Assembly: GCA_040256005.1 (NCBI GenBank)
Contig: JBDZWC010000013.1
Location: 1-27,601, forward strand
Length of the DNA: 27,601 nucleotides
Direction: 5' to 3'
DNA from: Deinococcaceae bacterium
GTDB lineage: Bacteria; Deinococcota; Deinococci; Deinococcales; Trueperaceae
The stretch's first letter is position 1; every line of letters starts with the position of its first letter. Of the stretch, positions 21,001 to 27,601 are shown in pieces. Position numbers: made by a program.

Positions 21001-24000
21001 TCGCCTGGAGCTGGAACGCCAGCTCCGGCAGGCGTTGCACGACAACGAGTTCGAGGTCGTCTACCAGCCGCAGGTGCGTCTATCGGACAACAGTTTGATT
21101 GGGTTCGAGGCCCTACTGAGGTGGCACAGCAGCGAGCTCGGCATCGTGTCGCCCGGCGAGTTCATCCCGGTCGCCGAGGAAGCGGGCCTGATAACCCCCA
21201 TAGGCCACTGGCTGGTGCGCGACGTCGCCATGCAGCTGCGCGACTGGCTGAAGGCGGGCTACGACCCCGTGAAGCTGGCCCTCAACGTCTCCACGATGCA
21301 GTTCCACCAGAAGTCGTTCATCGACACCGTCAAGGGCGCGCTCAACGACTCCGGCATCCCGCCCGAGCTGCTGGAGATCGAGGTCACGGAGAGCGTCCTC
21401 GTACGCGACTACGACCTGGCGCTGCGCACCCTGCTGCGGCTGGAGCGGCTGGGGGTCCCCACGGCGCTCGACGACTTCGGCACCGGCTACTCGTCTCTCG
21501 CCTACCTGCAAAGGCTCCCCATCAAGACGCTCAAGATCGACCGCTCGTTCGTGCAGGGCCTGGCGCCCCAGGTCGTCGATCAGGCCGTCAACGTCACGAA
21601 CCCCAAGCGGGCCCTGAGCACCGACGCCGGCCTGAGGCGCCACACCGGCATGCACGCCGGCGCCTGGACCGAGATCGCCGCGAACCTCTACGACGGGGGC
21701 AACGTCCCGGCCAGCACCTTCCCGATCGTCGAGGCCATCTGCGCGATGGCCCACAAGTTGGGCAAGCACGTGGTGGCCGAGGGCATCGAGACGGCCTACC
21801 AGCGCGACTTCCTGCGCCGTCTGGGCGTCGACTACGCGCAGGGCTACTTCTTCGCCCGGCCCATGCCGGCCTCGGAGGCCGAGAAGGTGCTGCGTCGCAT
21901 CACCGAGGACGCGGCGCGCGAGCGCAAGCTGCGCGAGCGCAACTCAGCTCGCCCGCCGGAGCAGCCCGCCGCCCAGCAGCTACACCTCGATACGGACGTT
22001 CTGCCCCAGCTCGAGCCCTCGCCGGAGCCCGCCGCCTACACGGGCTTCGACGACCTCATGCTGCTGGGCGACGAGACCAACCACACGCTCAACTAGACGT
22101 CGGCGCGCCGTCGGGAGGCGGGCGCAGGGGACCGGTCAGCCGCCAGCGCTCACTGCCTGGGCGGAGCGGCCGGACCCATTGTTCGGCTGAGCATGGCGGC
22201 GGCGACCTGTTCGCTGAGGGTCGGTCCCCACTTGGCGTCCTCGTTGATCGCCACCGAGTAGAGGGTCTGGCCCGTGAGCTGGTGGTTCGGTCCGAAGGCG
22301 AGGGTGCCTTTGGCGGTCCGAAGCGGCGTCCCGCTCGCGAAGACGTCGGCCAGGGCCCGTGGTGCGTCGGTCCTCGCCTTCTCCGCCGCCCGCCGGACCA
22401 ACATCAGGGCCTCGTACGTGGTCCAGGCGGTCGGGTCCGCTGGCTGACCGAACCGTGAGGTGAACCGCCTGTTGAAGTCGCCGGCGCGGCCGTCGGACAG
22501 CGTCGTCTCCCAGGCCAGCACCCGCGGTGCATCGAAGGCGACGCCGTACTCTGCGCTGGCGGCGAGGAAGTTCCGGGTCTGGGCCGCATCGAAGGGGTAG
22601 GGGCTGAGGAAGGCCTGGCCACCGCGGTCCCGGTAGCCGCCCATGAACACGAGCTGCTCGGTGGGCGGCAGGAGCACCATGACCGCGTTGGCACCCGACT
22701 CGGCCAGCCGCCGGAAGGCGCCCTCGAAAGTGGGGTCTCCGCTGGCGACGGCCATGCCGTCGACGACCCTCTCCCCGAGGTCGAACAGGGTGTTGACGGC
22801 GGCGCGCCCCAGCTCCTCGCCGGCAGGCTCGTCGAGGTGCACCACGAACCAGTCCAGAGGCTGGTCGCCGGCCCGTTCCCGGACGGCGCGGGTCATGGCC
22901 GTCACGTACGCCTCGGGCGACGGCGCCACGTGGAAGACGTTCCAGCGCGCCTCGCCTCGCGCCGCCGCGGGATCGCTGGAGCCGACGTCCAGGAACAGCA
23001 CGCCGTGCTGCGTGGCCACCTCCGCCAGGGCGTCGGACTGGCCCTTCCCGACGCCGCCGACCAGTACGTCCACGCCGTCCGCCAGGACCAGGCGCTCAGC
23101 AGCGCGCCTGGCGGCCTCCGGGCTGGGCGAGGTCGCGTAGTGGAAGACGAGCGCGACGTCCGTAGACGCTTCCTGGGAATCGATCAGGCCCTCCGCGATC
23201 TGGGCACCACGCAGCGCGGCGATGCCGGTGAGGTCGTTGATCGCCGCGAAGTACGTCCTGCCGCCCGTGGGCACCGGCAGCACGATGCCGACGTCCACGA
23301 CGGTGCCGACCTGAGGCCGGATCACGTCACCCGCGAACGGTTTCGGGGCTTCCAGGACCGGCACGGAGTACTCCGCCAGGATCGCCTGGACCTCGTCCCA
23401 ACGCGCGACCAGAGCCCGGTTCAGGAGAGCCTGGAGGGAGCTGTCCTCGCGCCTTACCGCCATGGTCATGGGCTGGACCTGGAAGGTGCTGGGCGGCTCG
23501 AACTGCGGCTCGATGGGCTTCACGACCAGGTCGGCTGAGGCCCTGTCCGCCCAATAGGCGGTACCTGGTCCCCACCCGAACCCGACGTCGATGTCGCCGG
23601 CGGCCACGGCCTTCACGAGCACGCTCAGGCGGTCATCGGAGCCGGCCGTGCCGCCGTAGAGACGAGTGATGTTGGCCAGCAGTCCGCGGCTCGAGAGCGC
23701 GACGTGCGGCGGGGTGCCGGCACCGTGGATGCCGAGCCTGAGCGAGCGGAGCTTGGGATCGTCGAGCGAGTCGATAGCGAGGCCGGAGTCGGCCCTGTAC
23801 ACCATCACGTAGGGGCTCGTGTAGTAGCTCAGGGTGTTGAGGCCCTTCTCGAACCCGTCCGGTATGCCCAGGATGACGTCGCAGAGGCCCTCGGCGAAGT
23901 GGAGGTTGACGAGGTCCTCGGTGAAGTTCACCCATTCGTAGGTGACCCTGGCCCCCATCTCCTCGGCGAGCGTTTCTATGATCCGGTTCTCGTAGCCGGC

Positions 24001-27000: not shown

Positions 27001-27601
27001 AGTGGCCTTCAGGCCACTCATCTCGGCGGCTGTCGTGCTTGACGGGTTCCTCCGATCGTGCCGATCGCGGAGCCCGGAGCAGCGACGGCCGAATCGTATA
27101 TCGGGACGTTTGTCCCAGGCAACCCGAAAAGGACCTAACTGACCTGGAGATGCGCAGCATATATCCGAGACCGCGTCCATGCGCGACATACGGGAGCCGT
27201 GGTCTTGTCGATCCGGCCCCGGATATGCCTCTTTGACAGGCATACCGAGGTGGGTCAGACGACCCAAGGGGCAGGCTGCCGGCGCTGGGAAATCGGACCT
27301 CGGCACGCTCGACACCTCGCTGGGAGGGCTACTGGGGTATGCCCAGCTCCCCACTACCCCGGCACGACGTGCTAATATCCTTCTTTGCGCGCTTCCCGGG
27401 GCAGGGCCCGCTGGGCCACGGCACACGCTAAGTCCCCCGCTGAGTGAGCGCCGAGATCGGGTCCGGGTGTGCCGGGCCTGGGGACCAAGCAGTCGCGCCG
27501 CCTCGGTGGAGGGCGGTCGCTTTCACGTGCAGAGGAGAACAGGTGGCGAAGACCAGCGAGACCAGGCTCGAAGAGGCCTCCGTAGCAGCGGCTGCCGCCG
27601 A

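What a model noticed while it worked through the whole genome (the two positions that open the first line are those of the whole stretch)
22150..27601. Lanthanide-type PQQ dehydrogenase triads with XoxJ-LivJ and Lipoprotein_15-cytochrome c fusions, no PQQ synthesis
The genome has three XoxF-related PQQ dehydrogenases with the full lanthanide ligand set (two here, one at C29:33136-35157), each in a triad with a MoxJ/XoxJ domain fused to a LivJ-type binding domain and a cytochrome c fused to Lipoprotein_15 repeats. C29 also holds a PedA1A2BC-like ABC set (36455-41743). PQQ synthesis genes are absent, so the cofactor would be scavenged.
Evidence so far: g01090 best PDB match is Ln-dependent XoxF 4mae, E 2.5e-131, aligning CC, Glu, Asn and WDYD; g00295, g01085, g01090 all keep CC, E, N and D-x-D. 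Fusion architectures in calls 30, 38. Close orthologs in 24 of 127 Trueperaceae and 4 of 68 of family f5; most of the 30 loci show the same two neighbours and D-x-D. pqqC in 0 of 12 genus genomes and 10 of 363 in the order. SBP, YVTN propeller, ATPase, permease match the PedA1A2BC make-up described in PMC6839425 (passage). Searches 32, 33, 184, 185 found no Deinococcota report. The finding spans contig positions 22150 to 33628; this window holds only 22150 to 27601 of it.
(Added by a program. Inside this text positions count along the whole contig: contig position 1 is position 1 of the stretch shown here. "Call 12" and the like, gene names such as g00115 and contig names such as C1 are that model's own, and its searches are not shown. 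The text may have been shortened before it was handed on; [...] marks where a part breaks off. The agent that wrote the report below was given it as the finding of a first reader that could run no searches.)

Follow-up and report, generated by a model that had tools for sequence, protein, structure and literature searches.

The report
Rare-earth-type dehydrogenase kit in Trueperaceae
This bacterium, from a group not usually linked to rare-earth metals, carries secreted alcohol-oxidising enzymes of an untested lineage with the rare-earth binding signature, packaged with a helper protein that joins the cofactor-loading chaperone to a copy of the suspected rare-earth transporter's binding protein, which offers a handle on how such enzymes receive their metal.

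Summary
Real. The window holds cytochrome c–dehydrogenase–XoxJ genes; an independent assembly confirms both fusions. The enzyme keeps Cys-Cys, Glu, Asn and D-x-D, but is not a XoxF1–5 member by my tree: with two paralogues it forms its own clade (Deinococcota, Vicinamibacterales, Bauldia) on the methanol-dehydrogenase side, with an altered substrate pocket. The genome shows no formaldehyde or formate pathway, so methylotrophy is unlikely. Corrections: five PQQ enzymes and four fusion sets, not three; 2 of the 24 'orthologues' are outside the clade. Additions: the 'LivJ' half is a duplicated copy of the PedA1-like binding protein, free in Bauldia and three Trueperaceae; C29 also has a PqqT-like protein (22 of 23 clade genomes; pqqC in 1 of 23), a MoxR/vWA set and an unnamed acidic helical protein that tracks XoxJ (31 of 34). 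Best reading: lanthanide-dependent periplasmic alcohol/aldehyde oxidation with scavenged PQQ. Metal, substrate and the fused domain's ligand are inferred. The scan saw this enzyme clade before in a marine Acidobacterium. New variant of a known kind.

The parts
26158..26928 (-). Secreted Lipoprotein_15 (two repeats, Cys pair) fused to a class I cytochrome c; likely electron acceptor of the dehydrogenase
26461..26853 (-). Lipoprotein_15/SCO0930-like domain (aa 26-156), function unknown
26209..26436 (-). Cytochrome c domain (aa 165-240), CxxCH and conserved Met
24279..26072 (-). PQQ eight-bladed propeller dehydrogenase, 597 aa, signal peptide; own clade on the methanol-dehydrogenase side
25680..25685 (-). 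Vicinal Cys130-Cys131, followed by Gly instead of the Asp of XoxF/MxaF/ExaA
25062..25070 (-). Asp335-Phe-Asp337: catalytic Asp plus the lanthanide-type Asp
22150..24174 (-). XoxJ::binding-protein fusion, 674 aa, one signal peptide (an upstream GTG at 24240 is possible)
23353..24054 (-). XoxJ/MxaJ-type domain (aa 41-274); best PDB match XoxJ 6onp
22153..23304 (-). Binding-protein domain, paralogue of the PedA1-like protein at C29:40448-41743
27179..27601 (+). Upstream region and 5' part of the rpoD reading frame, divergent from the triad; the second triad (contig 28834-33628) follows rpoD outside the window

Best explanation
A periplasmic, lanthanide-dependent PQQ dehydrogenase module of an untested clade, used by a heterotroph to oxidise alcohols or aldehydes (probably not only methanol) and feed electrons to respiration. 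Shown: genes, fusions, ligand residues, clade, co-occurrence. Inferred: (1) PQQ is taken from the environment and held by the PqqT-like protein (about 0.75); (2) the XoxJ half holds the apo-enzyme open for PQQ loading, as MxaJ does (about 0.8); (3) the metal is a lanthanide, handled by the PedA1A2BC-like cassette (about 0.8 for the metal); (4) electrons pass to the fused cytochrome c and on to one of two cytochrome c oxidases (about 0.85); (5) the fused binding domain arose by duplication of pedA1 next to xoxJ and binds the same kind of ligand, possibly handing metal to the enzyme (about 0.3 for hand-over).
For: Ligand set with Ca-type controls; the extra Asp is required for La binding in XoxF1 and ExaF (10.1101/2020.02.25.964783, abstract). 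Best sequence and fold matches are Ln-XoxF 4mae/6fkw. XoxJ domain E 1.2e-31 to 6onp; MxaJ loads PQQ (PMC12276312). PqqT match E 4.4e-22 keeping T41, G112, D141, K142; present in 22 of 23 clade genomes vs 27 of 103 genomes without a strong dehydrogenase hit; pqqC in 1 of 23; next to pqqC in G122. No pqqC in well-assembled G299, G301, G013 or single-contig G107. Fused domain vs PedA1-like E 1.3e-57, next genome binding protein 1e-12; xoxJ directly before pedA1 in G297 and G299, fused to it in G301. Two oxidase operons and four aldehyde dehydrogenase hits. No Fae, Fhs, Fdh, Hps, RuBisCO, FghA found.
Against: No biochemistry. D-x-D also occurs in Ca/Mg-using glucose dehydrogenase (PMC11996626 section 18), and a preprint predicts Ca preference for some two-Asp proteins. 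5 of the sequences that belong to the clade have Asp for the Glu ligand. All cassette genes are below NCBIfam cut-offs, and DrrA/DrrB models score higher for ATPase and permease; the partial Gemmobacter PedA1 gave no tblastn hit in G000. The PqqT-like protein lacks N143 and Y188 and occurs in 20 of 94 genomes without XoxJ. A MoxR/vWA set recalls the Ca-insertion system of MxaF. G000 is a 250-contig bin (96.8% complete), so single absences are weak; kin are not independent.
Confidence: 0.6

Rival explanations
1. A true methanol dehydrogenase (divergent XoxF3 sister) used only for extra energy or detoxification, without C1 assimilation.
For: Clade sits on the XoxF/MxaF side with SH-aLRT 100; grouping with XoxF3 is not rejected, p-AU 0.114; XoxJ and cytochrome partners as in xoxFGJ; JGI labels 5 of the 120 listed homologues lanthanide-dependent methanol dehydrogenase.
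Against: GxGGW segment and the Asp after Cys-Cys are lost, with an insertion and extra Cys pair next to the Asn ligand; no formaldehyde or formate route found; three paralogues at 55-58% identity suggest different substrates.
Confidence: 0.25
2. Calcium-dependent or metal-promiscuous quinoproteins; the ABC cassette and MoxR/vWA set serve Ca insertion or export, not lanthanide handling.
For: D-x-D is not always diagnostic; MxaRSACKL insert Ca (PMC12276312); cassette below cut-offs.
Against: Ca-type controls on the same alignment lack the Asp; all clade members examined keep it; the MoxR/vWA set lies beside the divergent DH4/DH5 enzymes and was not seen in the f5 regions fetched.
Confidence: 0.15
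3. The fused binding domain binds PQQ or the organic substrate, or is a degenerate passenger of a xoxJ-pedA1 gene fusion, with no role in metal delivery.
For: Fused copies evolve faster than free PedA1-like copies (longer branches; 29% identity); PDB matches are only amino-acid binders at E about 1e-5; fusion is optional (split in G013, G096, G064, L063, L064).
Against: Kept in all four G000 copies and with two very distant enzyme lineages; split copies keep their own signal peptide and position after xoxJ; a separate PqqT-like protein already exists; P. putida pedA1A2BC is not needed for carbon uptake (PMC6839425).
Confidence: 0.45
4. An 'empty quinoprotein' that uses a cofactor other than PQQ, explaining the missing pqq genes.
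For: Matches TIGR04528 acido-empty-quinoprotein at E 3.6e-80; no pqq genes.
Against: 270 bits vs cut-off 650, while TIGR03075 is passed; PQQ-contact Glu82, Arg136, Trp265 kept; PqqT-like gene co-occurs; G001 has both the clade enzyme and pqqC.
Confidence: 0.05

Closest known systems
xoxFGJ lanthanide methanol dehydrogenase systems (XoxF2 of Methylacidiphilum fumariolicum SolV, PDB 4mae; XoxF3 clusters, PMC10875860)
   Same: Propeller fold (TM 0.84), full ligand set, XoxJ and cytochrome c neighbours.
   Different: 37% identity; separate clade; CC-G, no GxGGW, extra Cys pair; XoxJ fused to a binding protein; cytochrome fused to Lipoprotein_15; no cox genes alongside; no pqq or C1 genes found.
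PedH with PedA1A2BC of Pseudomonas putida KT2440 (PMC6839425) and LutABEF of Methylorubrum extorquens AM1 (PMC7391723)
   Same: Non-methylotroph-style Ln alcohol oxidation; binding protein, YVTN propeller, ATPase, ABC-2 permease in the same order as the Gemmobacter cluster.
   Different: Enzyme is not in the ExaF/PedH clade; cassette genes below cut-offs; a 367-aa acidic helical protein fills the slot between propeller and ATPase; extra binding-protein copies fused to XoxJ.
MxaJ chaperone and MxaRSACKL MoxR/VWA system (PMC12276312)
   Same: J-type domain; MoxR, DUF58 and vWA genes within the C29 cluster.
   Different: No MxaI found; D-x-D instead of D-x-A; MoxR only 38% to MxaR over 172 aa.
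PqqT of M. extorquens AM1 (PDB 9B1U, PMC11331073)
   Same: E 4.4e-22; T41, G112, D141, K142 equivalents kept.
   Different: N143 to Ser, Y188 to Leu; host has no pqq genes; followed by its own permease and ATPase.
XoxG:J fusion (cytochrome cGJ) of Methylacidiphilum (PMC6688271)
   Same: XoxJ domain fused to a partner gene of the cluster.
   Different: There the partner is the cytochrome; here it is a PedA1-like binding protein, and the cytochrome has a different fusion.

Membership tests
PQQ-dependent dehydrogenase, methanol/ethanol family (TIGR03075) | Score over curated cut-off; eight-bladed propeller | tested here: met
   487.9, 508.5, 500.1 vs 480.05; fold matches
Lanthanide-dependent PQQ-ADH | Glu, Asn, catalytic Asp and extra Asp two residues on | tested here: met
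   E199, N283, D335, D337; Ca-type controls lack the extra Asp
Lanthanide-dependent PQQ-ADH | Ln bound and needed for activity | not testable with these tools
   needs ICP-MS and assays
XoxF (clades 1-5) | Nests in a XoxF clade | tested here: inconclusive
   Outside sampled XoxF3-type, XoxF5 and MxaF, whose grouping has SH-aLRT 89-94; sister to XoxF3 not rejected, p-AU 0.114; no verified XoxF1, XoxF2, XoxF4 sequence in the tree; XoxF3 label inferred from cox neighbours (PMC10875860)
XoxF (clades 1-5) | CC-D motif and C-terminal GxGGW segment shared by the sampled XoxF/MxaF | tested here: not met
   CC-G and no GxGGW in all 13 clade rows shown; one XoxF3-like row, L134, also lacks the Trp
XoxF (clades 1-5) | xoxJ and cytochrome c genes adjacent | tested here: met
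XoxF (clades 1-5) | Methanol oxidation | not testable with these tools
   no assay; C1 pathways not found
ExaF/PedH | Nests with ExaA/PedH enzymes | tested here: not met
   separate, SH-aLRT 100
PedA1A2BC / LutABEF | Binding protein, YVTN propeller, ATPase, permease in one cassette by a PQQ-ADH | tested here: met
PedA1A2BC / LutABEF | Scores over TIGR03863, 03866, 03864, 03861 cut-offs | tested here: not met
   140/413.6, 223.8/287.3, 223.2/302.25, 117.4/241.35
PqqT | PQQ-contact residues T41, G112, K142, N143, Y188 | tested here: inconclusive
   three of five kept
XoxJ/MxaJ | TIGR03871 over cut-off and match to XoxJ structure | tested here: inconclusive
   window copy 196.7 vs 212.15; two paralogues 212.2 and 212.8 just pass; 6onp E 1.2e-31
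Acido-empty-quinoprotein group A (TIGR04528) | Score over cut-off | tested here: not met
   270 vs 650

The most novel reading that the evidence does not exclude
The XoxJ::PedA1-paralogue fusion is a single-chain maturase: one half opens the apo-enzyme for scavenged PQQ, the other carries lanthanide (helped by the acidic helical protein, an unnamed lanthanide chaperone family) and loads it in the periplasm. The enzyme clade is a deep sister of all XoxF/MxaF, rooted in Deinococcota and passed on to Bauldia and Vicinamibacterales, acting on non-C1 substrates.
Probability: 0.2. Interest if true: 0.82.

Novelty: new variant of a known kind. Interest (0 to 1): 0.55.

Why it matters
How lanthanide reaches a periplasmic quinoprotein is unsettled: PMC12276312 (Discussion) says XoxF maturation remains to be elucidated, and LutA/PedA1 are treated as import components. 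A natural fusion of the PQQ chaperone to a copy of that binding protein, with free, adjacent and fused states all seen, turns this into a two-domain experiment. The locus also extends a full lanthanide-type kit to Deinococcota, for which my searches found no report, offers an untested enzyme lineage next to the methanol dehydrogenases, and points to a new candidate metal-binding protein family. If the enzyme proves to be an ordinary Ln alcohol dehydrogenase, it is a range extension only.

Tried and rejected
RNA runs: short contigs cover parts of the dehydrogenase and cytochrome genes in X17 and X18, but also flanking genes; contigs cannot rank expression, and the lack of cover over the fusion gene proves nothing. 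Promoter/terminator scan: nothing above chance. Acidic protein: no Foldseek match at E 0.001 or better, best VIA-align Z 12.1 to generic four-helix bundles, Atlas hits without families; no family assigned, none excluded. Lipoprotein_15: paper search gave listings with no function evident. No paper found to cite for the role of the GxGGW Trp; that role is recalled. The first pqqC search had no positive control; one search supplied one. Assembly artefact rejected. Conflation of G008 and G122 with the clade rejected (p-AU 0.040 for joining them). The careful tree did not finish; quick trees only.
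Full report
OBSERVATION. The window holds three co-directional minus-strand genes: a 256-aa Lipoprotein_15–cytochrome c fusion (26158-26928), a 597-aa PQQ dehydrogenase (24279-26072) and a 674-aa XoxJ–binding-protein fusion (22150-24174). One contig from an independent study (run X2) spans 21466-27006 with 9 differing letters and no gaps, and 49 clusters match the fusion protein, 48 of them over 88% or more of its length, so the fusions are real. 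A second triad follows rpoD on the same contig and a third lies on C29.

METAL SITE. On an alignment of 106 sequences the window enzyme has C130-C131, E199, W265, N283, D335 and D337; both paralogues match. Controls behave as expected: the MxaF beside moxJ/moxG has D-Y-A, a PedE-type has D-F-S, a quinohaemoprotein D-Y-T, annotated XoxF5 D-F-D (the PedE and quinohaemoprotein labels are my inference). The extra Asp is required for La binding in XoxF1 and ExaF (10.1101/2020.02.25.964783; abstract seen). Against this, D-x-D occurs in Ca/Mg glucose dehydrogenase (PMC11996626 section 18) and a preprint predicts Ca preference for some two-Asp proteins (10.64898/2026.07.14.738520, passages). Five clade sequences have Asp for the Glu. 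DH4 keeps D-x-D but has Asp for Glu, Gln for Asn and no Cys-Cys; DH5 lacks the catalytic Asp.

WHAT FAMILY. Best matches are XoxF2 4mae by sequence (E 1.4e-119) and fold (TM 0.84, 37% identity, model pLDDT 78). In trees of 78 (of 106, after removing near-duplicates), 38 and 26 rows, the three enzymes fall in one clade (SH-aLRT 99-100) with Trueperaceae, three f5 sequences at its base, Vicinamibacterales and Bauldia. It lies on the methanol-dehydrogenase side, outside the sampled XoxF3-type, XoxF5 and MxaF (their grouping has 89-94) and away from ExaF/PedH. Grouping with XoxF3 is not rejected (p-AU 0.114). The trees are quick searches, midpoint-rooted, and lack verified XoxF1, 2 and 4. All 13 clade rows shown have CC-G instead of CC-D and lack the GxGGW segment; all but the f5 rows carry an extra Cys pair around an insertion beside N283. 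That the Trp of GxGGW lines the substrate funnel is recalled, not cited (searches found nothing). So the pocket differs and methanol cannot be assumed.

DISTRIBUTION. At E 1e-100 or better, 25 of 128 family genomes match; G008 and G122 are outside the clade, leaving 23, of which G001 and G064 are partial and assigned by identity only. Four of 68 f5 genomes match at 46-49% (that f5 is Thermaceae is my guess from family size). Of 30 loci, 26 show the cytochrome fusion, 2 are cut by contig ends and 2 are the outsiders; 21 show the XoxJ fusion (one completed from L143), 3 are split, 4 are cut, 2 are outsiders. rpoD flanks the module in several relatives, suggesting long residence. Bauldia-type loci L063 and L064 hold the same kit with unfused genes; the Vicinamibacterales enzymes showed no XoxJ, cytochrome-fusion or cassette neighbours with my profiles. 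Exact holders come from landfill, solid-waste and mixed-culture metagenomes.

THE FUSED DOMAIN. A profile of the four 'LivJ' halves finds the cassette's PedA1-like protein at E 1.3e-57 and the next binding protein in the genome at 1e-12; pairwise identity is 29%; TIGR03863 is the best binding-protein model for it. In G297 and G299 xoxJ is directly followed by the single pedA1-like gene, then propeller and acidic protein; in G301 XoxJ is fused to a protein grouping with free PedA1-like copies. Split copies in G013, G096, G064, L063 and L064 have their own signal peptides with twin Arg. The simplest history is duplication of pedA1 beside xoxJ and fusion, more than once. MxaJ is a PQQ-loading chaperone (PMC12276312, Results part 1 of 2 and Discussion); PedA1A2BC and LutA are needed for growth at low La (PMC6839425 and PMC7391723, passages). 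Hand-over of metal by the fused domain is therefore a hypothesis with Rosetta-stone support only. The cassette is a distant homologue: all four genes are below NCBIfam cut-offs.

PQQ SUPPLY. pqqB, C, D, E were not found in G000. pqqC passes cut-off in 5 of 128 family genomes, 1 of the 23 clade genomes, and 0 of 5. C29:13917-14912 matches PqqT (9b1u, E 4.4e-22) and keeps T41, G112, D141, K142 but not N143 or Y188 (residues from PMC11331073, passages). It occurs in 51 of 128 genomes: 22 of 23 clade genomes, 27 of 103 without a strong dehydrogenase hit, 31 of 34 with XoxJ, 20 of 94 without, and lies beside pqqC in G122. Kin are not independent. Scavenging itself is common (PMC12124388, passages).

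PHYSIOLOGY. Fae, Fhs and RuBisCO gave no match; Fdh-alpha and Hps only weak sub-cut-off matches; FghA, MptG, MtdB and MxaI queries no hit; FrmA only 25%. Two cytochrome c oxidase operons and four aldehyde dehydrogenase hits exist. In a 96.8%-complete bin this argues against methylotrophy and for auxiliary periplasmic oxidation.

EXTRA PARTS. A MoxR, DUF58 and vWA set lies between the C29 enzymes and in G043, G013, G052, G064, recalling MxaRSACKL. A 367-aa secreted acidic protein between propeller and ATPase has 125 clusters, folds confidently as helical bundles (pLDDT 94.7), has conserved Glu-rich motifs, no clear fold match, and tracks XoxJ: both in 31, one only in 6, neither in 91 of 128 genomes. 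Metal binding is a guess.

LITERATURE. Searches found no report of lanthanide enzymes in Deinococcota or of this fusion. Term searches for Deinococc- and Trueper- gave zero in four surveys' main texts, and Deinococc- and Thermus gave zero in PMC12124388. Supplements: three files of PMC10875860 gave zero; only 18,383 characters of PMC11996626 could be read and two figure PDFs not at all; PMC12124388 yielded 150 characters; bioRxiv supplements, including a 77-phylum table, were not seen. Keltjens 2014 and Huang 2019 were not seen. PMC8470020 and PMC7065513 (passages) and PMC8546591 added nothing; PMC10502179 and PMC8498564 were seen as listings only. A XoxG:J fusion is known (PMC6688271, passage). 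JGI auto-labels homologues as lanthanide-dependent methanol dehydrogenase.

VERDICT. A real, conserved, lanthanide-type quinoprotein kit: known in kind, new in enzyme lineage, host phylum and fusion design. Interest 0.55.

Noticed in passing
G000 C29:38255-39358 (L002:12256-13359, minus): Secreted acidic helical protein of no known family with conserved Glu motifs, in the slot between YVTN propeller and ATPase; tracks XoxJ in 31 of 34 genomes. Candidate metal chaperone.
   Followed up: partly
G000 C29:17601-23253 (L003:11601-17253): Two divergent PQQ enzymes without Cys-Cys use the same fused partners; DH4 has a D, Q, D-x-D site, DH5 lacks the catalytic Asp. Several genomes (G039, G050, G095, G107, G110, G111) have XoxJ and the acidic protein but no strong match to the window enzyme.
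   Followed up: partly
G000 C29:23204-30987: vWA, DUF58, MoxR and a 500-aa unknown protein inside the cluster, as in mxaRSACKL; also in G043, G013, G052, G064.
   Followed up: partly
G000 C29:41961-43621: Response regulator and histidine kinase divergent from the PedA1-like gene, conserved there in 5 loci; candidate regulator.
   Followed up: partly
window 27179-27601 and contig 27179-28819: rpoD sits between the two C109 triads and beside the module in relatives; a masked N run lies just past the window end.
   Followed up: partly
window 20123-22096: Membrane GGDEF-EAL gene convergent on the triad, conserved there in 6 related loci.
   Followed up: partly
L027 (G008) and L028 (G122): A different, more XoxF-like enzyme in two Trueperaceae that also have pqqC (L027: E 1.1e-192 to 4mae); possible true methanol oxidisers in Deinococcota.
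   Followed up: partly
G000 C51:8081-8809: Stand-alone secreted Lipoprotein_15 protein, possible source of the cytochrome fusion; Bauldia cytochromes lack the domain.
   Followed up: no
L138:4878-6461: Deinococcus sp. KNUC1210 plasmid has a D-x-D PQQ propeller next to a cytochrome c gene.
   Followed up: no
window 14685-20079: Ordinary neighbours: leucyl aminopeptidase-like gene and a peptide ABC transporter (names from sequence inspection, no family search).
   Followed up: no
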